A stretch of 64,000 bases of DNA from Staphylococcus phage vB_Sau_P68. Below are positions 2,484 through 61,340 of the stretch, piece by piece. How positions within the stretch are numbered: position 1 is the first letter of the stretch; every line of letters begins with the position of its first letter. Under the pieces are notes generated by a model, which worked only from the letters and a program-made list of their open reading frames with translations, ran no database searches and was not told the origin of the DNA. Both the position numbers and the translations under genes were made by a program. The DNA lies in sequence record OL741057.1; one strand, 5' to 3'.

Positions 2484-3370
2484 TAAATATACACCTCTTC
2501 ATCAAATCTCATAACTCTTCCGTTAAACTCATTCCAATAATCATCGAGCTTATATCTACCTATAGGTGTTTCATCTTTAGGAAATTTACCTATCATAGAT
2601 ATAAATTCTCCGTCACCTACATATATTCCTATGTTAGTGTCACTTCTACCAAAGAACAGTATATCTCCTGCTATAAACTTATTAATATCTACTTTATACT
2701 TATGCCCTTTACCAAATACAGTGTAAAATCTTCCTTCTGTAAAGAAATAGTTAATGTTCATAGGGTAAGCTAACTCTTCATCTTCACTTAAGTATAACCA
2801 ATACAGTAAGTTATAAGTATCAATGTAAACATCTTTATCTGTACCAAAAGGATTCTCTTTAGGGGCTCCTTTAAACATATATTTTATATTAGTTAGGGAA
2901 TCTATAGCATCATTTAACTCCAACGCTAATATAGTACTTAAAGGTACATCTTCATTAAACAGGTATTCCTCTTCCATATACTCACCGTATAAAACATCTT
3001 GTATCTCATCAAAGTAATCTATTAGAATTTCTTGGTTTCTTTCTACTAAATGGACTGTTACTGTTGATAAGGAGTCTGTTGGTATAGACCCTCTATCAAC
3101 TAAATAACTTACCTTACGAAAACTTAATTCTGCTTCTATATCTGTACCGTTATTTAAAAAGGACTCATATTGAATCTGTTGAGGGTTTAAACTCTGTATA
3201 ACTCCTACATAAGGTCTAATGTAAACAACCTTCTCGTACATATCTTCTGTAGTTATCTTTTTAATCTCGGCATCTTTCTCTTTAACTCTTTCTGTAGTTA
3301 AAACATCAAAATTAAACACGTTATCTATGAATTTATCAATAATATCTTTAGCTTCCTTATCTGTTGCCAT
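2483..3370 (-). CDS. conserved tail-module protein (295 aa) downstream of the tail murein hydrolase
   Basis: 295-aa ORF tightly packed between the tail hydrolase gene and the next structural gene. Same size and position as what I recall for the Kayvirus tail-associated protein. Confidence 0.7.
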   Translation of the reverse strand: MATDKEAKDIIDKFIDNVFNFDVLTTERVKEKDAEIKKITTEDMYEKVVYIRPYVGVIQSLNPQQIQYESFLNNGTDIEAELSFRKVSYLVDRGSIPTDSLSTVTVHLVERNQEILIDYFDEIQDVLYGEYMEEEYLFNEDVPLSTILALELNDAIDSLTNIKYMFKGAPKENPFGTDKDVYIDTYNLLYWLYLSEDEELAYPMNINYFFTEGRFYTVFGKGHKYKVDINKFIAGDILFFGRSDTNIGIYVGDGEFISMIGKFPKDETPIGRYKLDDYWNEFNGRVMRFDEEVYI

Positions 3371-3383
3371 AGATTATCCTCCT

Positions 3384-5813
3384 TTATTTTTTATCATAAA
3401 TGAATTGAGCTTCTTTACCTATCTGTGAACTCATATCTATTGTTCTAGTTCCATAACCATTAGCTGTAGCCCAATTATGCTCAGATATGAATATTTTCTT
3501 ACCTCCGTCTAAAACTTTCTCAACGAAGGCAACGTGACCATAAGCATTAGAGCCTCCTTTATCTCCTCGTTGCCAAATAACACAGGCACCTTGTTTAGGT
3601 GTCCTACCTACTCCATAACCTGCTCCTTTAGCCCCACCAATCCAGTCGGCGGCATCCCCCCATAGCGGTACCGGTATACCTAATTGACCTCTTCTATTAT
3701 AAGCATACCAAGTACATTGATATTTATAATGTCTATTACCAGGTTGAACAAAGTTAGGGTCATGTTTAGGTAACTTACCATTATATTTTTTAAGTGAATC
3801 TAGTGAACCTCCATCTTGGGCTCCTCCACTATCAGAACCTCCTGTATCTCCACTAGTTTTTTTCTCTGATACTCCTTTTTCTTTAAGCTCTTTGGATGTA
3901 TCTTCACCCATAAGCCCACCCATAAAGTCAGATGATTGGTTCCATAAACCTGCAAATCTGTGAGGACTACCTTTACCATCTTCTAAGATAGCATCTTTTA
4001 AACCTCTAGTTACTCCTACAGTTGTATAGTAACCTTGTTTGTAATCAAACTTATGTTCAACAGATTCTATATAGAATTCCCAAGTATCTCCTCGTTGCTT
4101 ATCTTCAATAAATAGTCTTTTTCCTAAATCATATTTAGGGTCACCTAGAACAATAATGTCTCCTGCGTAGAAGTTAGGGTTACCATGATACCAATTAAAT
4201 AACATCCTAGAAAACATTGCTAGAGGGTCATCACTTGCATCTGAACCTGTGTCTGTAGCTATATTACTAACACCTTCAATAGCTTTTAGGTATTTATCAA
4301 AAGCGACATCATTAGGTGGCTCTCCTTTATACTCAATATAGGAATCTAATAATACTTCTGCGTGTTTTTTATTACCAAATCTATATTTAGTAATTAGTTC
4401 TTTTTTTGCCTCTGCTTTAGCTTTTTTTCTTTTTTTAGCATTGTTGAAGTGTTCTTGTGTTTTAAACTTCTCTTTTAGTATACTCTTTAATTTGTCTTTT
4501 GTCAACTTCGGTCTGTTATCTGATGTTAATTCATCATCTACTTTATTACCTGTTATCTTCTCGTATTCTTTTTCTGTTACTTTTCCTTCTTTGACGAACT
4601 TCTCTATAATTTTTTTAGCTTGAGCTTTTTTTAAGTTTTTATACTTTGAAGATAACTTACTTGTATATTTATCTATACCTTTTGAAATATTGTCTCTTCC
4701 ATAGTTACTTAAATCTTTCATAATTTTAGAATAAGTTCCTCGTTCAGTACCATTATCATCTCCTGCAGAATCAGAATCTTCAGTAGCTGAACCTGTTTTA
4801 GTACTTAGATAAAGGTTCTCTACTTCAAATTTAGTATACCCATATCTATCAGTCAATTCAGGATGAAATTGTGGTTTAGAAAATACATCACCATTAAGTT
4901 CTTTTAACATACCTGCAGGTGTAGCTGTAAATATAGAATATGTCTCTACATCACTTTTACCTACATCCTCCTCAATGAAGTCTTCGGTAGGTACTTTAAT
5001 CATATCCAAAGCTCTCCACTCAGTAGGATTAAAAGGTGTTTTTCTTAATACAAGTTGTGCTTTACCTGGTGTTTTTTCAGAGTTTTTGAAGAACAATTCA
5101 TTAAAAGGTCTAGCTGTAACCATATCCATTAACTGTTTTAACGAACCATCAAAATTAGTAAAAGCGGATATTTCAGTTAGATTTTCAAACTCATCCCAAC
5201 TACTTAAATCATCATAATCAAGATAGCTATCTATTGTATTATATGTTTTTTCAGTATAATTATATTTCATATATGGTATGAATCTACGTATAATTCCTGT
5301 CATTACTTCATGAGCTGAGCTACCGGTAAATTTTACTTCATTATCTCCATCACCATCAATAAGCCAACCTACTTCAGGAAGTACAGCTTGAACCTCTTGA
5401 ATAACACCTAATCCAAATTTCATAAAAGGTTTTACAAAAGATTGACCTGTTATTCTAAACTGAGTTTGGTCATTACCATAACTACCTACTTTTGATACTT
5501 GGGAAACCATACCTACTTGGATGAGTCGTTCTTGTCTTCCTTCTTTATCATTAGGGTCATCATTAGGAGTAATAAATATTCTTATAATATCATTAGCCAT
5601 AACTAGCTTATCCCAATAAGTATCTCCTGCCATATTTATTTGGAAAACTGAACTATCATCTTCCATAGAGTTTTTAGTTTGAAATCCTAATAGTTTAGCT
5701 CCAAACTCATCACCGTTATAATCCCGTGTATCTTCGAATCTTAATGTAAATGTATTATCATCTGTAACAATTTCTATTCTTACCTTAGGTCTTCTTATTC
5801 TACGCATATACAC
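3384..5813 (-). CDS. tail-associated murein hydrolase with C-terminal CHAP domain
   Basis: 809 aa. The C-terminal region (...QCTWYAYNRRGQ...GHVAFVEKV...) has the Cys/His spacing of a CHAP peptidase. It sits directly downstream of the tape measure gene. Confidence 0.8.
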   Translation of the reverse strand: MYMRRIRRPKVRIEIVTDDNTFTLRFEDTRDYNGDEFGAKLLGFQTKNSMEDDSSVFQINMAGDTYWDKLVMANDIIRIFITPNDDPNDKEGRQERLIQVGMVSQVSKVGSYGNDQTQFRITGQSFVKPFMKFGLGVIQEVQAVLPEVGWLIDGDGDNEVKFTGSSAHEVMTGIIRRFIPYMKYNYTEKTYNTIDSYLDYDDLSSWDEFENLTEISAFTNFDGSLKQLMDMVTARPFNELFFKNSEKTPGKAQLVLRKTPFNPTEWRALDMIKVPTEDFIEEDVGKSDVETYSIFTATPAGMLKELNGDVFSKPQFHPELTDRYGYTKFEVENLYLSTKTGSATEDSDSAGDDNGTERGTYSKIMKDLSNYGRDNISKGIDKYTSKLSSKYKNLKKAQAKKIIEKFVKEGKVTEKEYEKITGNKVDDELTSDNRPKLTKDKLKSILKEKFKTQEHFNNAKKRKKAKAEAKKELITKYRFGNKKHAEVLLDSYIEYKGEPPNDVAFDKYLKAIEGVSNIATDTGSDASDDPLAMFSRMLFNWYHGNPNFYAGDIIVLGDPKYDLGKRLFIEDKQRGDTWEFYIESVEHKFDYKQGYYTTVGVTRGLKDAILEDGKGSPHRFAGLWNQSSDFMGGLMGEDTSKELKEKGVSEKKTSGDTGGSDSGGAQDGGSLDSLKKYNGKLPKHDPNFVQPGNRHYKYQCTWYAYNRRGQLGIPVPLWGDAADWIGGAKGAGYGVGRTPKQGACVIWQRGDKGGSNAYGHVAFVEKVLDGGKKIFISEHNWATANGYGTRTIDMSSQIGKEAQFIYDKK

Positions 5814-19619: not shown

Positions 19620-20528
19620 TTATAATCCTATCATATTATATCCAAAGTAGGCTCTTAAACCATCCAATAGTTCTTTTATATCAGAATCAATTTGAATTAT
19701 CTGAGCACTAGCTCCACCATACATAGCTGATTGAGTAGTTCCGATTGTTTCTGTAATACCGTCTACTTCTAATGTTTTATTAGCAATACCGGCACCAATG
19801 ATTAAGTTACCCCATACTTGGTATATTTCTTTCAATGCATATTTTATAACTAGCTGTTCTAACTCAGGAGGCATCTCCCAAGGTTTATTTCTTCCTGCTT
19901 TTTTACGTGGAAGCATACCTGATACATATTCTAGTCGTATCATTTGAGGTGCAAATGTTGCTCCTGATGGTGGATATACACCTGCTAATTGAGGGTATCC
20001 ATTGAATACAGCGTCATATGACATTGATTGTCCTGTTTGCATAAGTGCTGTAGGGAACAATTGAACATGACCGGCTAAATGCTCTACTTTCCACCAGTTA
20101 GCAGGGTATTTATATATAGGTCTACCATTAAATTGTAGCTGTAAGTTCTCTACCTGTAATATAGGTTTTCTGTAAGCATGTACAAACATATAGCTATTAA
20201 ACTCTGTCTCATGATAATCTCTCATCTCATGTTGAGTGTCAGGTAGTATAGAAATATCTAACGCTCTCTCAGCTTTACCTACTGCCCTTTCTAATATATG
20301 GTTATAAAACTCATCACCCATAGGCTGTCCTGTATCAGGGTTTTGTACTACAATACCGAACATATAAGCTTTAACTGCATCAGGTGACCATCCATAATCA
20401 GCTAATGTTAAGTTATCTATCTCACTTACGTCTATATGTTTAGGGTTGCCATCAGGATGATAAGGATATTCATAGTTTAATGATTTTTCATAAGGGTCTA
20501 AGTCCCCTCCAAACATTGAGTTAACCAT
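19620..20528 (-). CDS. conserved structural protein (head completion/connector region)
   Basis: 302-aa ORF downstream of the capsid gene. Confidence 0.7.
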   Translation of the reverse strand: MVNSMFGGDLDPYEKSLNYEYPYHPDGNPKHIDVSEIDNLTLADYGWSPDAVKAYMFGIVVQNPDTGQPMGDEFYNHILERAVGKAERALDISILPDTQHEMRDYHETEFNSYMFVHAYRKPILQVENLQLQFNGRPIYKYPANWWKVEHLAGHVQLFPTALMQTGQSMSYDAVFNGYPQLAGVYPPSGATFAPQMIRLEYVSGMLPRKKAGRNKPWEMPPELEQLVIKYALKEIYQVWGNLIIGAGIANKTLEVDGITETIGTTQSAMYGGASAQIIQIDSDIKELLDGLRAYFGYNMIGL

Positions 20529-57141: not shown

Positions 57142-57166
57142 TAATAGATTAAATTGATAAATTAAC

Positions 57167-57195
57167 TTGACATTAAGTATTATTTATGATATACT
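57167..57195 (+). promoter_or_regulatory. sigma-A promoter (TTGACA-17-TATACT) driving an ORF-free transcript
   Basis: Consensus hexamers immediately after the 56923 gene. Confidence 0.7.
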
Positions 57196-57201
57196 ATTAG
57201 T

Positions 57202-57770
57202 ATAGTAGTTAACTAAAGCCTCTTATATAATGCTAAACACAGTTAGCCTTTTTTAACCTTATAATGAGAGTAAGAGCCTAACTATATGGGTACTTTGAAA
57301 TCATTATATTTTACCTATGGTATAGGTGAACCGTACCTACTTTCCAAATAGGGATAACTCAAAATCAGGTAGCAACTTGAGAGTGAAATAAGTCGGACAG
57401 CTTTATATTCAGAAGAAGTGTCAGAGGATATAAAGTAATGGCTTGAGATACCGAGCCTTGATTACTAGGTATCAGACACTTGGCGTGTAACCTAAGTTTA
57501 TGGTTAGATGGGTTGCAACATAAGGAAGCTGATTTCCTCTGTATAGCTTGGAGGAACTCCATAAGACAGCCAAACCACTGTATATTCAGTTACTATGGCA
57601 AAGCTATATGAGGTAAACTCTTATATAGCTCCCTGTTATAGTACATACACGCAGTGACGAGCGTTTCAACATCAAGGATACTCATACAATTGTCGTAAAA
57701 TAATATTAACCGTAATCTAAGTACGGGAGCCTTGATGGGACACCTATTTTAATTAATAGGTGTTTTTTTT
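57202..57770 (+). ncRNA. candidate ~570-nt structured non-coding RNA with its own promoter and intrinsic terminator
   Basis: No ORF on the plus strand. GC-elevated. Many hairpins (e.g. AGCUAUAUGAG...CUCUUAUAUAGCU; CCAUA...UAUGG; GGAAGCUGAUUUCC). Repeated GAGCCUUGAU motif. Terminator ACACCTATT-TTAATTAAT-AGGTGT followed by TTTTTTTT at 57740-57770. Confidence 0.5.
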
Positions 57771-57771
57771 A

Positions 57772-57800
57772 TTGACATTTATAAATAAGTATGGTAAGAT
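57772..57800 (+). promoter_or_regulatory. sigma-A promoter (TTGACA-17-TAAGAT)
   Basis: Upstream of the phosphatase gene. Confidence 0.6.
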
Positions 57801-57827
57801 AGTTATATACAATAAGGAGGAGATTAA

Positions 57828-58532
57828 ATGGCTATATATGTAGTACCTGATATTCATGGGGAATATGAAAAACTAATAACAATTATGGATAAAATTAATA
57901 AAGAAAGAAGACCTGAAGATACCATTGTATTCTTGGGTGACTATATTGATAGAGGTAAAAAGTCTAAAGATGTTGTAAACTACGTGTTTGACTTAGTATC
58001 TAACGATGATAATGTAGTAGCTTTATTAGGAAATCATGATGATGAATTTTATAGGGTCATGGAGAAGGTAGATTATTTAGATATCTATAGCATTGAATGG
58101 TTATCAAGATATTGTATAGAAACACTTGATTCTTATGGTGTAAGTACTTCAACTTTAAAATATGAAAGTGTAGAAGATAACATAAGAAATAATTATGATT
58201 CTATTAAAGGAGAACTAAAGAAATTTAAAGAATCAGAAGATTATAGAAAATTTAAAATACTTATGGTTAATTGCAGAAAGTATTATAAAGAAGGTAAGTA
58301 TACATTTTCTCACTCAGGAGGAGTCAGTTGGAAACCTATAGAAGAACAGACAATAGACCAATTAATATGGTCTAGGGATTTTCAACCTAGAAAAGATGGA
58401 TTTATTCACGTATGTGGTCATACACCTACGAGTAGTGGGGAAGTAGAAGAACATAATGATATGTTGTTATGTGACGTAGGTGCTGTATTTAGGGATATAG
58501 ATTTACCACTTATTAAATTGGAGGAGTATTAA
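57828..58532 (+). CDS. Ser/Thr protein phosphatase (calcineurin-like metallophosphoesterase)
   Basis: 234 aa. VVPDIHGEY...FLGDYIDRG...LLGNHD...GH are the signature metallophosphatase motifs. Confidence 0.8.
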   Translation: MAIYVVPDIHGEYEKLITIMDKINKERRPEDTIVFLGDYIDRGKKSKDVVNYVFDLVSNDDNVVALLGNHDDEFYRVMEKVDYLDIYSIEWLSRYCIETLDSYGVSTSTLKYESVEDNIRNNYDSIKGELKKFKESEDYRKFKILMVNCRKYYKEGKYTFSHSGGVSWKPIEEQTIDQLIWSRDFQPRKDGFIHVCGHTPTSSGEVEEHNDMLLCDVGAVFRDIDLPLIKLEEY

Positions 58533-58534
58533 AT

Positions 58535-58987
58535 ATGGAAACAGTAACTTTAGGGAGATTACTAGAACTATTCAGTAATAAAGAAAACATAGAAAAACTT
58601 AATAAAGATAATTTTATAGCTTTAGAGCCTGAATATCGTCATGATAAAGAGAGTAAAGGTCATACTATACACTTTAACTTTAACACACCTAAATTTGAAA
58701 ACTTTTTTACAATTATTGTCAAACTTAACTCTTTTGAAGGCTATGGTAATGATGATATTGAACTTTGTCTGTTAGCAGGTCATTTAAGAGGGTATGTAAG
58801 TAAACGTATACCAAATACTTATGATGATTTCTTTAAAACCCTTATTCAATTAAGAGATGAGTATATCGAGTATAAGGGAGAGTTCAAAGAATCAAATAAA
58901 GAAGAATGTGATAAAGCAAATCAAGCAAAGATAGAGAACCAAAAACAAGTCGATAAAATGGCTAATACTTTAGATAAATATTTATAA
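58535..58987 (+). CDS. hypothetical protein
   Basis: 150-aa ORF. Confidence 0.7.
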   Translation: METVTLGRLLELFSNKENIEKLNKDNFIALEPEYRHDKESKGHTIHFNFNTPKFENFFTIIVKLNSFEGYGNDDIELCLLAGHLRGYVSKRIPNTYDDFFKTLIQLRDEYIEYKGEFKESNKEECDKANQAKIENQKQVDKMANTLDKYL

Positions 58988-59001
58988 GGGGATAATAACA
59001 A

Positions 59002-59496
59002 ATGAGAGAAACAAGCAGATATATTATGTTTTGGGGTCAGGAAGATATTTACTCTAACTTTTACCCTATAAAGTTTAAACATAAAGGTCGAACATTTAAT
59101 AATTCAGAACAAGCTTTTATGTGGCGTAAGGCTCAATATTTTAAAGACTGGCAGATAGCAGGAGAAATATTAAATGCTAAGAATCCGAAACATGCTAAAA
59201 GTTTAGGACGTAAAGTTCGTAATTTTAATGAAGAGCAATGGAATAAGGTAAGATATGACATTATGGTAGAAGTGGTTAAAGATAAGTTTATGACTACACA
59301 CTTAAAGAAAAAAATACTCGATACAGATTTACGTAAAGACTTCGTAGAGGCATCACCTTATGATAAAATATGGGGAGTGGGACTTAAAGCAAATGACCCT
59401 AAGATATTAGAACAAAGCAACTGGAAAGGTCAGAATTTATTAGGAAAAGTAATGGAAGATGTTCGAGTACATTGTGTCTATAATAAATATAAATAA
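59002..59496 (+). CDS. NADAR/YbiA-like (DUF1768) domain protein
   Basis: 164 aa. FWGQ...SNFYP...FNNSEQAFMWRKA...LGRKVRNF...W...EASPYDKIWGVG matches the YbiA/NADAR signature. Confidence 0.75.
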   Translation: MRETSRYIMFWGQEDIYSNFYPIKFKHKGRTFNNSEQAFMWRKAQYFKDWQIAGEILNAKNPKHAKSLGRKVRNFNEEQWNKVRYDIMVEVVKDKFMTTHLKKKILDTDLRKDFVEASPYDKIWGVGLKANDPKILEQSNWKGQNLLGKVMEDVRVHCVYNKYK

Positions 59497-59511: not shown

Positions 59512-59955
59512 ATGAATATAAAATATATAGATTTAGTATTAGAAAATTGTGATGTAGTAAGATTAGAGCCTAAAGATGTATCTAGGTTCCATATAGACGG
59601 TATTACAGAAGGTATAGATTATTATGGCACATATAAAGGAGCTTCACATGTAAGTAGAACACGTCATTGTACTTACCTTGGTATACTTATTGATAAGCCT
59701 AAAGAAATACCTCAAGTCGGTTTTGCTTACCCTGATAATACAAATGCCTATGAAATGATTACAGCACACTCAGATATTACAGCTATAGATATTATTTATG
59801 AAGATGGAACAAATGAATACATTTATGTAGACTTCAATGAATATAACGATAACTACAATATTAACCAAAAGAATGAATATTACAATAATATGTTAGAAGT
59901 AACTATTACGGAAAGTAACTCTATAGAAGAAGAGGAAGATAGGAGAGGAAAATAA
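59512..59955 (+). CDS. hypothetical protein
   Basis: 147-aa ORF. Confidence 0.7.
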   Translation: MNIKYIDLVLENCDVVRLEPKDVSRFHIDGITEGIDYYGTYKGASHVSRTRHCTYLGILIDKPKEIPQVGFAYPDNTNAYEMITAHSDITAIDIIYEDGTNEYIYVDFNEYNDNYNINQKNEYYNNMLEVTITESNSIEEEEDRRGK

Positions 59956-60434
59956 TGGCTTATGAATATAAAAATAAAATTCAAGATATTATAACTGACA
60001 ACGAGAACTACTGGTGTATTGATAATGAGAAAGAATTAGAAGAGTTGAACGAAGTTTATCAAAAAGCAAAGCTACTAGATGATATTGTAACAACTACTAA
60101 AAAACGTTTATCGGAACAAGAACGCAAAGCAGAAGCCTTCGATGAGATTGTAAATGAACTCTACTCCCAATTACAGAATCTAGAGAGTTGGGACACGCTA
60201 GACCAAAAGGATTGTCAGACTCTAAAACAAATACTAGAAGAAAATACTAAGGAGGAAAAACAAATGGGGAGATTTAAGGTAAAACGTATTATTACTACAG
60301 AAGAAATAAGATATATAGATGCAGAAACAGAAGAAGATGCATGGTATAGTGTAGAATATGAAGACGAGGGTACAGACACAGCCCATTTTAGTGCAGAATA
60401 CGGTGAATGGTCTTATGAAAAGGAGGAAGAATAA
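59955..60434 (+). CDS. hypothetical acidic coiled-coil protein
   Basis: 159-aa ORF. Confidence 0.7.
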   Translation: MAYEYKNKIQDIITDNENYWCIDNEKELEELNEVYQKAKLLDDIVTTTKKRLSEQERKAEAFDEIVNELYSQLQNLESWDTLDQKDCQTLKQILEENTKEEKQMGRFKVKRIITTEEIRYIDAETEEDAWYSVEYEDEGTDTAHFSAEYGEWSYEKEEE

Positions 60435-60592
60435 TGGTGGGGTATGATATTAATGAAAAAAGTTATGACGCATATGAGTATATAAAAGAAAAGTATAAGA
60501 ATGAAAACTTAAGCCTTGGAGAGATATTTTATTATGAAGTTTTAGATGATTTACAGGGAAAAGATAGCATACTAAATAAGGAGGAAAAGTAA
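60434..60592 (+). CDS. small hypothetical protein (52 aa)
   Basis: Not in the track; ATG overlaps the upstream stop (TAATG) and its stop overlaps the next start; RBS AGGAGG. Confidence 0.5.
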   Translation: MVGYDINEKSYDAYEYIKEKYKNENLSLGEIFYYEVLDDLQGKDSILNKEEK

Positions 60593-60837
60593 TGGAATTT
60601 TTTATAGATAGAACAAGCACAATTAATAAGAAGCCTATAGAAGGTGCCTATATAAAGGAATTAGAACTTGTAGACCGCAAAGGTAATCCATTTACGCTAG
60701 AACGTTGGTGTGTAGAAATTAATAGCCTAGAAGAGCTCATAGAGATAAGTAATCAAGAGGGTGAAGTTATTATTAATACTAGAGGTGACTCACCATTTTC
60801 ACCTTACTTAGAAATATATGATGATTATAGAGAATAA
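60592..60837 (+). CDS. hypothetical protein
   Basis: 81-aa ORF. Confidence 0.6.
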   Translation: MEFFIDRTSTINKKPIEGAYIKELELVDRKGNPFTLERWCVEINSLEELIEISNQEGEVIINTRGDSPFSPYLEIYDDYRE

Positions 60838-60852
60838 AGGAGAATAACTAAT

Positions 60853-61047
60853 ATGAAAAATAATAAATATGAAGTAATATTTGAAGTCGTTTATAGTCCA
60901 TTGTTTTTCTTTCACCCCAAATATGAAGTTACAGCAAAAGATGAAAATGAGGCAAAAGAAAAAGCACAAGAAGCATTTAATAGTCACCCAAACAATATTA
61001 ATTTAGAACGTGAAATTGTAGAAGTAAATTTATTGGAGGATAAATAA
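60853..61047 (+). CDS. hypothetical protein
   Basis: 64 aa; RBS AAGGAG. Confidence 0.55.
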   Translation: MKNNKYEVIFEVVYSPLFFFHPKYEVTAKDENEAKEKAQEAFNSHPNNINLEREIVEVNLLEDK

Positions 61048-61311
61048 ATGAAACTATATCAAGTAGAACATGATAATTGTGAACCTTATGAAGATAACCA
61101 TTCTTACAGAGAAAACAAGGTATATACAAATAAAGAGAATCTAATTAAACGTATTAAAGCAGAAGGCTATGAAGAAAAAAGAAGCGGATACCTTCAAGAT
61201 GGAGATACTTACTATTATAAAGATAATATAGAAGATGTACCATTATTTAGAGAAGACATGATTACTATTCATGAATTAGAAGTTATTAATAATACCTTAG
61301 AGGAAGAATAA
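61048..61311 (+). CDS. hypothetical protein
   Basis: 87-aa ORF. Confidence 0.6.
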   Translation: MKLYQVEHDNCEPYEDNHSYRENKVYTNKENLIKRIKAEGYEEKRSGYLQDGDTYYYKDNIEDVPLFREDMITIHELEVINNTLEEE

Positions 61312-61340
61312 TATTCTTTCTCTTTTTTTATATAAAACTA

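What the first reader, a model, noticed from the sequence alone, without database searches (positions are those of the whole stretch)
59002..59496. Phage-encoded NADAR/YbiA-like protein: candidate counter-defence or NAD/ADP-ribose metabolism enzyme
The 164-aa protein carries the YbiA/NADAR signature (FWG...SNFYP...SEQAFMWRKA...LGRKV...EASPYDKIWGVG). NADAR-family enzymes act on ADP-ribose-derived substrates. They have been reported to remove ADP-ribose from guanine bases, reversing DarT-type DNA ADP-ribosylation. A phage copy could therefore neutralise DarTG-like or other NAD/ADP-ribose-based host defences. It lies between a Ser/Thr phosphatase and other early genes.
Basis: partly seen in the sequence, partly recalled or inferred. 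Interest (0 to 1): 0.55.

Follow-up and report, generated by a model that had tools for sequence, protein, structure and literature searches.

The report
Staphylococcus phage NADAR ADP-ribose-removing enzyme
This is a genuine, intact NADAR-family enzyme gene in a Staphylococcus Kayvirus-like phage, already annotated as NADAR in RefSeq; it most likely strips ADP-ribose off nucleic-acid bases, as related phage NADARs do to beat the DarTG1 defence, but no matching defence is yet known in staphylococci.

Summary
The ORF at 59002-59496 (+, 164 aa) is real and is a NADAR protein: Pfam PF08719 scores 137.6 bits against a cut-off of 35.1. An AlphaFold model (pLDDT 96.8) superposes on the Phytophthora NADAR:ADP-ribose structure 8BAU at TM 0.86. 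All eight ADP-ribose-contacting or catalytic residues are conserved (E36, K43, R70, W80, R84, E116, D121, W124).

The window is a Staphylococcus Herelleviridae (Kayvirus-like) phage. The gene is the ortholog of phage K gp028, which RefSeq already names "NADAR family protein". In phage K it is a middle gene, not an early one, co-transcribed with the Ser/Thr phosphatase. It is present in about 230 Staphylococcus phage records and is under strong purifying selection (dN/dS 0.05-0.14).

It belongs to the Glu-type "general NADAR" clade, not to the DarG1 antitoxin type or the T4 AdfN type. It is 35% identical to the Bas60/61 phage NADAR, which was shown experimentally to counter DarTG1.

The counter-defence reading is therefore plausible by homology but untested. 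I found no DarT-family gene among the staphylococcal plasmid hits shown. The Bacillota DarTG loci I inspected use macro antitoxins. The closest cellular relatives sit in NAD/ADP-ribose and RNA-repair islands.

Verdict: a new member of a known kind, of modest interest.

The parts
59002..59496 (+). NADAR-family ADP-ribosyl N-glycohydrolase gene (164 aa). It is the ortholog of phage K gp028 and MCE-2014 gp024.
   Evidence: ORF. Pfam PF08719 at 137.6 bits. TIGR02464 at 189.9 bits. 8BAU E=4.5e-24. AlphaFold pLDDT 96.8, and Foldseek to 8BAU TM 0.86. Functional residues conserved. dN/dS 0.05-0.14.
58986..58991 (+). Shine-Dalgarno-like AAGGGG, 10 nt upstream of the NADAR start codon.
   Evidence: Read directly from the sequence.
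57772..57800 (+). Sigma-70-like promoter candidate (TTGACA, 17-nt spacer, TAAGAT, with an extended TG) for the phosphatase-NADAR unit.
   Evidence: Consensus scan, 10 of 12 matches. The position corresponds to the start of phage K TU14, downstream of an annotated terminator. This is an inference, not a demonstration.
57828..58532 (+). Calcineurin-type (NinI/lambda-like) Ser/Thr metallophosphatase, the first gene of the same unit.
   Evidence: Pfam Metallophos 73.8 bits and phrog_246 E=3e-64. The phage K ortholog gp030 is in TU14 together with NADAR.
58535..58987 (+). 150-aa ORF of unknown function between the phosphatase and NADAR. This slot varies among Kayviruses.
   Evidence: phrog_20305, function unknown. 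No Pfam or PDB match. CF7 has no gene in this slot, phage K has a different 399-bp gene, and MCE-2014 has two genes.
59512..61311 (+). Six tightly packed small ORFs downstream in the same apparent unit (59512-59955, 59955-60434, 60434-60592, 60592-60837, 60853-61047, 61048-61311), all of unknown function.
   Evidence: ORF list. phrog_2349 and phrog_4355, function unknown. No PDB match for the first ORF.
61299..61323 (+). Intrinsic-terminator-like hairpin followed by a T-run, the likely end of the unit.
   Evidence: 11-bp stem, then TTTTTTT.
57737..57766 (+). Terminator-like hairpin that closes the upstream non-coding unit and isolates the phosphatase-NADAR unit.
   Evidence: Phage K annotates a terminator at the equivalent place.

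Best explanation
The gene encodes a compact, stand-alone, catalytically intact NADAR enzyme of the Glu-type 'general NADAR' clade.

Shown here: family membership, fold, a complete set of ADP-ribose-binding and catalytic residues, strong purifying selection, and conservation across about 230 Staphylococcus Herelleviridae phages.

Inferred from homology to enzymes that have been assayed: it binds the ADP-ribose moiety through K43, R70, W80, R84 and W124, and positions the distal ribose with E36, E116 and D121. It then hydrolyses the N-glycosidic bond between ribose C1'' and an exocyclic nitrogen of a nucleobase. The base would be guanine N2, and probably also cytosine, as reported for this clade. 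The reaction releases free ADP-ribose and restores the unmodified base in DNA or RNA.

Inferred role: the gene is expressed in the middle phase from a sigma-70-type promoter, together with a Ser/Thr phosphatase. The enzyme would then clean phage (and perhaps host) nucleic acids of ADP-ribose adducts placed by a host ADP-ribosyltransferase toxin or defence. That would make it an orphan 'antitoxin-like' counter-defence of the kind shown for NADAR-Bas60, NADAR-Bas32 and AdfN against DarTG1.

The specific staphylococcal transferase it answers to is unknown.
For: Family and fold.

Residues: Pn E43/K50/R79/W89/R93/E125/D130/W133 correspond to query E36/K43/R70/W80/R84/E116/D121/W124. All except R84 are invariant, as is S18, in a 42-sequence family alignment. 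The equivalent Glu is essential in SCO5665 (E167Q and E167D are inactive; PMC12945103).

Homology to tested enzymes: 42.5% identity to PnNADAR, a guanine-ADPr hydrolase. 35.4% identity over the full length to Bas61_0107, sharing the motifs FVEASPYD and WKGQNLLGK. Bas60-62 encode the NADAR-Bas60 protein, which restored phage growth on DarTG1 hosts and neutralised DarT1.

Every NADAR family tested removes G-ADPr from DNA and RNA, and the NADAR and YbiA families also remove C-ADPr.

Maintained as a functional gene: dN/dS 0.05-0.14 with dS up to 0.83, and present in 233 Staphylococcus phage records.

Expression: middle gene, TU14 in phage K; promoter and terminator signals in the window.

Basic protein: pI 9.69, net charge +12, compatible with nucleic-acid binding.
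Against: There is no biochemical or genetic test for any Gram-positive phage NADAR. The main text of the key paper does not mention Staphylococcus, Bacillus or Listeria.

No staphylococcal DarT-family gene was seen. Plasmid tblastn with an E. coli probe and a Bacillus probe gave 80 and 93 hits, none staphylococcal among the rows and genera shown. The three DarT loci inspected pair with macro antitoxins. Chromosomes could not be searched.

In vitro activity does not guarantee in vivo protection: YbiA and T4 NADAR hydrolyse G-ADPr in vitro but did not rescue cells from DarT1.

Gene neighbourhoods of the closest relatives point to NAD/ADP-ribose metabolism and RNA repair rather than to DNA-ADPr defence.

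The protein lacks the N-terminal nucleic-acid-binding extension of DarG1 antitoxins. This follows from its length of 164 aa with the domain starting at residue 8-10.
Confidence: 0.55

Rival explanations
1. The enzyme works on soluble ADP-ribose or NAD-derived small molecules rather than on macromolecular adducts. Candidates are immune signals, toxic by-products, or by-products of KptA-dependent RNA repair. It would act as part of the phage's NAD/ADPr housekeeping or as a signal-degrading counter-defence.
For: The closest cellular relatives are clustered with NrtR (13 of 80 loci), Tpt1/KptA (7), microbial PARG (7) and Macro (6+4). In 46 dereplicated viral lineages, NAMPT (4, all within 3 genes), NAPRT (4) and Nudix (8) recur near the gene. 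RtcB, RNA ligase or PNK3P lie next to NADAR in Listeria, Enterococcus and huge phages. Iyer et al. 2022 predicted that phage NADARs prefer low-molecular-weight ADPr derivatives.
Against: The papers read here report no small-molecule ADPr substrate for any NADAR. NADARs were inactive on phosphate-linked ADPr at RNA or DNA ends. Every recurrent neighbour is present in 8 or fewer of 46 viral lineages, and lineage independence was not controlled. No NAMPT, Nudix, Macro, KptA or RtcB homolog was found in this window by tblastn, though that test has low sensitivity.
Confidence: 0.2
2. It is a YbiA/COG3236-type metabolite-damage N-glycosidase acting on riboflavin-pathway intermediates, as the labels 'riboflavin biosynthesis intermediates N-glycosidase' and 'ribA/ribD-fused' suggest.
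For: TIGR02464 scores 189.9 bits against a cut-off of 73.7. JGI names for homologs are 'ribA/ribD-fused uncharacterized protein'. Phage K tables call the ortholog 'N-glycosidase YbiA-like'.
Against: TIGR02464 also accepts PnNADAR (117.9 bits) and the anti-DarTG1 Bas61 NADAR (109.8 bits), so it does not discriminate substrate. The query is much closer to PnNADAR (96.7 bits) than to YbiA (45.8 bits). No riboflavin genes were noted in the annotated regions of related phages read here. E. coli YbiA itself also hydrolyses G- and C-ADPr. The CF7 label 'GTP cyclohydrolase II' has no domain support.
Confidence: 0.07
3. It acts non-enzymatically, as an ADP-ribose-binding sponge or inhibitor of a host defence. 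Johannesman et al. cite such a case for another phage NADAR, in the Retron-Eco1 study of Carabias 2024.
For: [quoted passage not shown] T5-like phage NADARs are 29% identical to the query.
Against: Complete conservation of the catalytic Glu and the other active-site residues under strong purifying selection argues for catalysis. I could not read the retron paper itself, because it is not held in the library.
Confidence: 0.05
4. It reverses, or limits, ADP-ribosylation carried out by a phage-encoded transferase, acting as a self-immunity or regulatory partner, as proposed for T4-like phages where NADAR is expressed alongside Alt/Mod ARTs.
For: Iyer et al. note co-expression of NADAR with ARTs in T4-like phages.
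Against: No ART is annotated in the roughly 20-40 kb around the gene in MCE-2014, CF7 or phage K. There was no tblastn hit to T4 Alt or DarT seeds in the window (low sensitivity).
Confidence: 0.03

Closest known systems
Phage K gp028 and MCE-2014 gp024 ('NADAR family protein', RefSeq YP_009041250.1 and YP_009097954.1)
   Same: These are orthologs, 91-92% identical at the protein level, in the same position downstream of the NinI-like phosphatase. In phage K the gene is a middle gene in TU14.
   Different: The window's phage (closest relative CF7, 99.4%) carries a different set of small ORFs around the gene. It has one 150-aa ORF between the phosphatase and NADAR, and it lacks the 543-bp gene that follows NADAR in K and MCE-2014. 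None of these orthologs has been characterised experimentally.
NADAR-Bas60 (Bas60-62; bas61_0107 of Escherichia phage EmilieFrey), an experimentally shown anti-DarTG1 factor (Johannesman et al., Nat Commun 2025)
   Same: A stand-alone phage NADAR of the non-DarG1, non-AdfN type. It is 35.4% identical over the full length (blastp E=8e-29), has the same catalytic Glu/Lys/Arg/Asp set, and shares the motifs FVEASPYD and WKGQNLLGK.
   Different: The host is a Gram-negative bacterium that can carry DarTG1. Bas61 has insertions (183 aa) and Tyr in place of W124. Its genomic context is different. Activity of the staphylococcal phage protein is untested.
Phytophthora nicotianae NADAR (PDB 8BAU), a guanine-ADP-ribosyl hydrolase (Schuller et al. 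2023)
   Same: This is the best structural and sequence match among solved proteins (42.5% identity; Foldseek TM 0.86). All eight ADPr-contacting residues are identical.
   Different: It is a eukaryotic protein of 189 aa with an insertion of about 17 residues after the GIGL motif, which forms part of an active-site-adjacent extension. The phage protein lacks this insertion.
AdfN (T4 gp30.3; Pfam PF08010 Phage_30_3)
   Same: A phage-encoded orphan NADAR used as an enzymatic counter-defence. It keeps the Glu/Lys/Arg/Trp core positions.
   Different: There is no significant pairwise similarity (blastp E=2) and no PF08010 or TIGR02464 relationship. AdfN replaces the catalytic Glu with His and is adapted to hydroxymethylated T-even DNA.
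DarG1 (the DarT1-associated NADAR antitoxin; E. coli C7, G. lovleyi)
   Same: Same superfamily, and the same reaction is expected (removal of ADPr from guanine).
   Different: DarG1 has Asp at the catalytic position and a basic N-terminal extension, and it sits next to darT1. The query has Glu, has no extension and has no adjacent toxin gene. Its family profile does not reach the G. lovleyi structure even at E<=10.
E. coli YbiA (PDB 2B3W), the COG3236 riboflavin-intermediate N-glycosidase
   Same: Same fold (TM 0.78), same Glu-type active site, and both pass TIGR02464.
   Different: Only 26.6% identity. K43 is Gln and R84 is Lys in YbiA. YbiA is a chromosomal housekeeping or SOS-operon gene.

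Membership tests
NADAR superfamily (Pfam PF08719 / DUF1768) | Significant full-length match to the family profile | tested here: met
   PF08719 E=5.8e-40, 137.6 bits against a cut-off of 35.1, covering profile positions 2-159 of 163. phrog_1017 E=6e-65.
NADAR superfamily (Pfam PF08719 / DUF1768) | Alpha-helical core flanked by small beta-sheets, superposable on solved NADAR structures | tested here: met
   AlphaFold model with pLDDT 96.8 and pTM 0.90. Foldseek gives 8BAU at E=2.9e-12 and TM 0.86, and 2B3W at E=9.3e-8 and TM 0.78, with no other significant hit.
NADAR superfamily (Pfam PF08719 / DUF1768) | Conserved Ser/Glu/Lys of the substrate channel, plus the catalytic acidic residue (SCO5665 S69/E87/K94/E167; Pn E43/K50/E125) | tested here: met
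   S18, E36, K43 and E116 are present and invariant in a 42-sequence alignment. R70, W80, D121 and W124 are also invariant.
NADAR superfamily (Pfam PF08719 / DUF1768) | ADP-ribosyl-nucleobase glycohydrolase activity | not testable with these tools
   This needs an enzyme assay on G-ADPr, C-ADPr and T-ADPr oligonucleotides.
'General NADAR' family (PnNADAR, SCO5665, E. coli sigma70-linked NADAR), as opposed to the YbiA, T4-phage and DarG1 families | Glu, not Asp or His, at the catalytic position | tested here: met
   E116 aligns with Pn E125.
'General NADAR' family (PnNADAR, SCO5665, E. coli sigma70-linked NADAR), as opposed to the YbiA, T4-phage and DarG1 families | Closer to reference members of this family than to YbiA, AdfN or DarG1 | tested here: met
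   blastp gives Pn 96.7 bits, YbiA 45.8 bits and AdfN not significant. The family profile gives 8BAU 130.7 bits and YbiA 64.9 bits, and does not detect the G. lovleyi NADAR.
DarG1 antitoxin of DarTG1 | Encoded next to a DarT1 (DUF4433) toxin gene | tested here: not met
   The neighbours are a metallophosphatase and small ORFs of unknown function with no DUF4433 hit. There was no tblastn hit to DarT seeds in the window.
DarG1 antitoxin of DarTG1 | Asp at the catalytic position and a basic N-terminal extension preceding the YbiA-like core | tested here: not met
   The residue is Glu (E116). The NADAR domain starts at residue 8-10 of a 164-aa protein.
AdfN (T4 gp30.3-type phage NADAR, PF08010) | Match to PF08010 or sequence similarity to gp30.3, with His replacing the catalytic Glu | tested here: not met
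   No PF08010 hit at E<=0.01. blastp against gp30.3 gives E=2. The Glu is retained.
Phage anti-DarTG1 NADAR, as a functional class (NADAR-Bas60 and NADAR-Bas32) | Homology to a tested member, with an intact active site | tested here: met
   35.4% identity to bas61_0107 at E=8e-29, with the catalytic set shared. T5-like NADARs are 29% identical.
Phage anti-DarTG1 NADAR, as a functional class (NADAR-Bas60 and NADAR-Bas32) | Restores phage growth on DarTG1 hosts, or neutralises DarT1 | not testable with these tools
   This needs plaque assays and toxin-rescue assays.
Phage anti-DarTG1 NADAR, as a functional class (NADAR-Bas60 and NADAR-Bas32) | The host range includes bacteria that carry a guanine-specific DarT1 | tested here: inconclusive
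   No staphylococcal plasmid appeared among the DarT-family hits shown. The Bacillota loci inspected are macro-type. No literature record was found.
YbiA/COG3236 riboflavin-intermediate N-glycosidase (TIGR02464 equivalog_domain) | Score above the TIGR02464 cut-off | tested here: met
   189.9 bits against 73.7. However, PnNADAR (117.9 bits) and Bas61 (109.8 bits) also pass, so the model does not define the substrate.
YbiA/COG3236 riboflavin-intermediate N-glycosidase (TIGR02464 equivalog_domain) | Fusion to, or clustering with, riboflavin biosynthesis genes (RibA/RibD) | tested here: not met
   The protein is a stand-alone 164-aa protein with a single NADAR domain. No rib genes were noted in the flanking annotation of K, MCE-2014 or CF7.

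The most novel reading that the evidence does not exclude
Staphylococcal Herelleviridae keep this NADAR, under strong purifying selection and in about 230 genomes, because staphylococci possess a nucleic-acid ADP-ribosylating defence or toxin that has not yet been described and is not DarTG1. It might target guanine or cytosine in phage DNA, or in tRNA or mRNA. The phosphatase-NADAR middle operon would then be a two-enzyme 'modification eraser' module, removing phospho- and ADP-ribosyl marks imposed by host immunity. The linkage to RtcB, RNA ligase and PNK seen in Listeria, Enterococcus and huge-phage relatives would fit an RNA target.
Probability: 0.2. Interest if true: 0.6.

Novelty: new member of a known kind. 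Interest (0 to 1): 0.3.

Why it matters
Kayviruses (phage K and its relatives) are the main therapeutic phages against Staphylococcus aureus, and most of their early and middle genes have no assigned function. Assigning one conserved middle gene to a defined chemistry, the removal of ADP-ribose from nucleobases, gives a concrete and testable hypothesis about host-range determinants. It also offers a genetic handle: a gp028 knockout could be used to look for ADP-ribosylation-based immunity in staphylococci, where none is currently documented in the sources I could search. Beyond that, the finding adds little conceptually. Phage NADARs, their activity and their counter-defence role were published in 2023-2025, and the gene is already labelled NADAR in RefSeq.

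Tried and rejected
1. The 'riboflavin N-glycosidase' label from TIGR02464 was rejected as uninformative, because the control proteins PnNADAR and Bas61 also pass the model.

2. 'GTP cyclohydrolase II', the annotation in CF7, was rejected. The protein has a single NADAR domain and no GCHII domain.

3. I looked for a fixed functional partner among the adjacent ORFs. The slots flanking NADAR differ between K, MCE-2014, CF7 and the window, and the ORFs have no Pfam or PDB match. No obligate partner emerged.

4. I looked for a universal gene neighbourhood. Viral neighbours are heterogeneous, each family occurring in 8 or fewer of 46 lineages. The RtcB linkage holds in Listeria and Enterococcus phages but not in Kayvirus. 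No enrichment statistics with proper controls were computed.

5. I sought a DarT1/DarG1 reference sequence by several routes:
   - T4 AdfN against plasmids gave one unrelated Euzebya hit.
   - The NADAR profile against PDB did not reach the G. lovleyi NADAR.
   - The Lawarée paper has no locus tags.
   - LeRoux 2022 is not held in the library.
   - I did recover EPEC DarT2 through a supplement, but all plasmid DarT loci inspected were macro-type.
   - As a result, no DarT1-specific probe was obtained.

6. The S. epidermidis plasmid NADAR (CP052942.1) was examined for a partner toxin, and none was recognisable.

7. A seed-based tblastn for other NAD/ADPr enzymes in the window gave nothing. The test is insensitive: even the metallophosphatase seed missed the window's own phosphatase.

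8. The Retron-Eco1 paper on a non-enzymatic phage NADAR could not be read, because it is not in the library.
Full report
**Observation.** It has an ATG start, encodes 164 codons and ends in TAA, and every quoted motif is in its translation. An AAGGGG Shine-Dalgarno-like element lies 10 nt upstream. The gene sits 14 nt after the preceding ORF and 15 nt before the next one, so it is packed as in an operon.

**Family assignment.**
- Pfam NADAR (PF08719) matches at E=5.8e-40, 137.6 bits against a gathering score of 35.1, across almost the whole profile.
- NCBIfam TIGR02464 scores 189.9 bits against a cut-off of 73.7.
- PHROG 1017, of unknown function, matches at E=6e-65.
- Among solved structures, the best sequence matches are the Phytophthora nicotianae NADAR 8BAU (E=4.5e-24) and E. 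coli YbiA 2B3W (E=2.8e-5).
- An AlphaFold2 model built on a 42-sequence alignment is very confident (pLDDT 96.8, pTM 0.90).
- Foldseek finds only 8BAU (TM 0.86) and YbiA (TM 0.78) as significant matches.

**Active site.** Schuller et al. [quoted passage not shown] In a MAFFT alignment these positions map to E36, K43, R70, W80, R84, E116, D121 and W124 of the query, and all are identical. All except R84 are invariant, as is S18, in the 42-member family alignment. The equivalent of E116 is essential in SCO5665, where E167Q and E167D abolish activity (PMC12945103).

The residue at this position also sorts the superfamily. It is Glu in the general NADAR and YbiA families, Asp in DarT1-associated antitoxins, and His in T4-type phage NADARs. 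The query is of the Glu type. By pairwise score it is much closer to PnNADAR (96.7 bits, 42.5% identity) than to YbiA (45.8 bits), and it has no detectable similarity to T4 gp30.3/AdfN. A profile built from its family does not reach the DarT1-associated G. lovleyi NADAR in PDB even at E<=10.

**What TIGR02464 does and does not say.** The NCBIfam name 'riboflavin biosynthesis intermediates N-glycosidase' might suggest a metabolic role. As a control I scored characterised NADARs against it. E. coli YbiA (169.5 bits), PnNADAR (117.9 bits, partial sequence) and the Bas61 phage NADAR (109.8 bits) all pass the cut-off. Only T4 AdfN fails. The model therefore recognises the Glu-type NADAR fold, not a substrate. 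The 'GTP cyclohydrolase II' label on the 99.4%-identical CF7 ortholog is a mis-annotation, because the protein has a single NADAR domain.

**Source genome and conservation.** The surrounding 4 kb matches 253 Staphylococcus Herelleviridae (Twortvirinae, Kayvirus and relatives) records at 80-96% identity. The protein is found in 233 Staphylococcus phage records, the closest being phage CF7 from S. succinis at 99.4%.

RefSeq already calls the orthologs in phage K (gp028, YP_009041250.1) and MCE-2014 (gp024) 'NADAR family protein'. Seven orthologs give pairwise dN/dS of 0.05-0.14 with dS up to 0.83, which indicates strong purifying selection. The gene's GC content equals that of the window (0.315 against 0.314), so there is no sign of recent acquisition.

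Relatives at 38-52% identity occur in Listeria (Pecentumvirus), Enterococcus (Schiekvirus) and Bacillus phages. Relatives at 35-40% identity occur in phi92-like and phAPEC8-like coliphages, and many more in huge phages from metagenomes.

**Expression.** A terminator-like hairpin at 57737-57766 is followed by a sigma-70-like promoter candidate at 57772-57800 (TTGACA, 17 nt, TAAGAT, with an extended TG). Downstream come the phosphatase, a 150-aa ORF, NADAR and six small ORFs, then a terminator-like hairpin at 61299-61323.

This mirrors phage K. There an annotated terminator precedes the phosphatase gp030, and RNA-seq places gp030 through gp025, including gp028, in one unit, TU14, classed as 'middle' (PMC9241854 supplement). 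The phosphatase is also not the immediate neighbour in this window.

The ORFs flanking NADAR differ among K, MCE-2014, CF7 and the window, and they have no Pfam or PDB match. There is therefore no evidence for an obligate adjacent partner.

**What is known about such enzymes.** All four NADAR families hydrolyse guanine-linked ADP-ribose on DNA and RNA in vitro, and none removes thymine-ADPr (PMC11125620; PMC11833690). The general NADAR and YbiA families also remove cytidine-ADPr, whereas the DarG1 and T4 types do not (PMC12945103). NADARs are inactive on phosphate-end ADPr.

Johannesman et al. (PMC11257639 / PMC11825919) showed that T4 AdfN, NADAR-Bas32 (T5-like) and NADAR-Bas60 (Bas60-62) counter DarTG1 but not DarTG2. 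They also showed that the latter two neutralise DarT1 without infection. Escherichia phage EmilieFrey is Bas61, and its bas61_0107 protein is 35.4% identical to the query over the full length (E=8e-29). The two proteins share the FVEASPYD and WKGQNLLGK motifs and the catalytic set. This is the closest experimentally characterised phage homolog. The main text of that paper does not mention Gram-positive phages.

**Context of relatives.**
- In 46 viral lineages, dereplicated at 70% NADAR identity, the recurrent genes within about 8 kb are Nudix (8 lineages), metallophosphoesterase (8), MmcB-like (8), a Dda/RecD-like helicase (7, of which 6 within three genes), NAPRT (4) and NAMPT (4, all within three genes).
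- In Listeria LP-124 and Enterococcus A2, NADAR lies within about 1 kb of RtcB. In LP-124 it is also near an RNA ligase, a HAD protein and a phosphoesterase.
- In a 462-kb phage contig it sits between a PNK3P phosphatase and a P-loop kinase.
- In the 80 best cellular loci, none of which is staphylococcal and the closest being Hazenella, Metabacillus and Lysinibacillus at about 50% identity, the recurrent neighbours are NrtR (13 loci), Tpt1/KptA (7), microbial PARG (7) and Macro (6+4).

These are the NAD/ADP-ribose and RNA-repair associations that gave the family its name. They were the basis of Iyer et al.'s prediction that phage NADARs act mainly on soluble ADPr derivatives. They keep a small-molecule or RNA-centred role alive as a rival. 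No neighbour family is universal, and I did not compute a controlled enrichment.

**Is there a cognate defence in the host?** I could not find any report of DarTG in staphylococci. DarTG occurs in 11.2% of Bacillus cereus-group genomes (PMC11811056).

Using EPEC darT2, recovered from a paper supplement and the E. coli genome collection, tblastn found DarT-family genes on 80 of 72,556 plasmids, with Bacillus accounting for 34. A Bacillus thuringiensis DarT probe found 93. No Staphylococcus record appears among the rows shown or the ten most frequent genera.

The three loci I inspected (B. thuringiensis, Cytobacillus, Sinorhizobium) all pair DarT with a macro-domain antitoxin, i.e. they are type 2. 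Staphylococcal chromosomes could not be searched, so this is only a partial negative.

One S. epidermidis plasmid (CP052942.1) carries an orphan NADAR that is 43.6% identical to the query, among unknown genes.

**Conclusion.**
- The identification as a NADAR enzyme is secure, at about 0.97 confidence.
- Activity as a nucleobase-ADP-ribose N-glycohydrolase (guanine, probably also cytosine, on DNA and/or RNA) is a strong inference from complete active-site conservation and from assays on homologs, at about 0.75.
- Use as a counter-defence against a host ADP-ribosyltransferase is the best-supported biological role, by analogy with NADAR-Bas60, NADAR-Bas32 and AdfN, at about 0.5.
- A specific link to DarTG1 in staphylococci is unsupported.

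The gene is already annotated as NADAR in RefSeq, and the concept was published in 2023-2025. This is therefore a new, uncharacterised member of a known kind, of modest interest. Its main value is as a handle for discovering ADP-ribosylation-based immunity in staphylococci and for annotating therapeutic Kayviruses.

Noticed in passing
window 57642-57774 (+), within the non-coding stretch 57142-57827: There is an Rfam hit to DUF3800-I RNA (RF02969) at 45.0 bits against a gathering score of 44.2, E=2e-5, matching the full model. It overlaps the terminator-like hairpin just upstream of the phosphatase-NADAR promoter. A sub-threshold TEG147 match lies at 57255-57314, and a strong promoter-like site (TTGACA, 17 nt, TATACT, with TG) at 57167-57195. 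This suggests a non-coding RNA unit of about 570 nt. In phage K the equivalent region holds tRNA-Met, and lnc002 is reported next to that gene. CF7 annotates a pseudo-tRNA there. ARAGORN finds no tRNA at this place in the window.
   Followed up: partly
L171 (S. epidermidis plasmid pHD75-1_1, CP052942.1) 3075-3560: A 64-kb staphylococcal plasmid carries an orphan NADAR gene that is 43.6% identical to the phage protein (Pfam 154.9 bits). It sits among ORFs with no recognisable function, and no partner toxin was visible.
   Followed up: partly
L003 (phage CF7, PP034388.1) 20001-20495: The 99.4%-identical ortholog is annotated 'GTP cyclohydrolase II' in GenBank, and several other phage records carry the same label on NADAR homologs. 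This is a propagated mis-annotation, probably arising from RibA-fused family members.
   Followed up: yes
window 57828-58532 (+): The NinI/lambda-type Ser/Thr metallophosphatase is co-transcribed with NADAR. Its N-terminal part also matches phrog_8238, a 737-position 'RNA ligase' profile. It could be a protein phosphatase countering kinase-based host responses, or an RNA-end-healing phosphoesterase. Neither possibility was tested.
   Followed up: no
L008 2948-5510 (Enterococcus phage A2); L009 3463-8840 (Listeria phage LP-124); L006 4944-7428 (462-kb phage contig LR756500): NADAR homologs in other large phages lie next to RNA-repair genes: RtcB, RNA ligase, HAD or phosphoesterase proteins, and PNK3P plus a P-loop kinase. 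No such linkage exists in the Kayvirus window. The Kayvirus 'RNA ligase' (759 aa in CF7) lies about 17 kb away, outside the window.
   Followed up: partly
window 58535-58987 and 59512-59955; compare L001, L003, L010: The small ORFs immediately flanking NADAR are a mosaic, variable set among otherwise collinear Kayviruses (0, 1 or 2 genes upstream; a 543-bp gene present or absent downstream). The phosphatase and NADAR are constant.
   Followed up: partly
L174 2989-4658 (B. thuringiensis pBMB51); L176 2471-4137 (Cytobacillus plasmid); L175 2480-5301 (Sinorhizobium plasmid): The plasmid-borne DarT genes inspected all pair with macro-domain antitoxins (DarTG2-like). The Sinorhizobium DarT is an unusually long 441-aa protein next to a SIR2 gene. 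Thirty-four of the 80-93 DarT-positive plasmids are from the Bacillus cereus group.
   Followed up: partly
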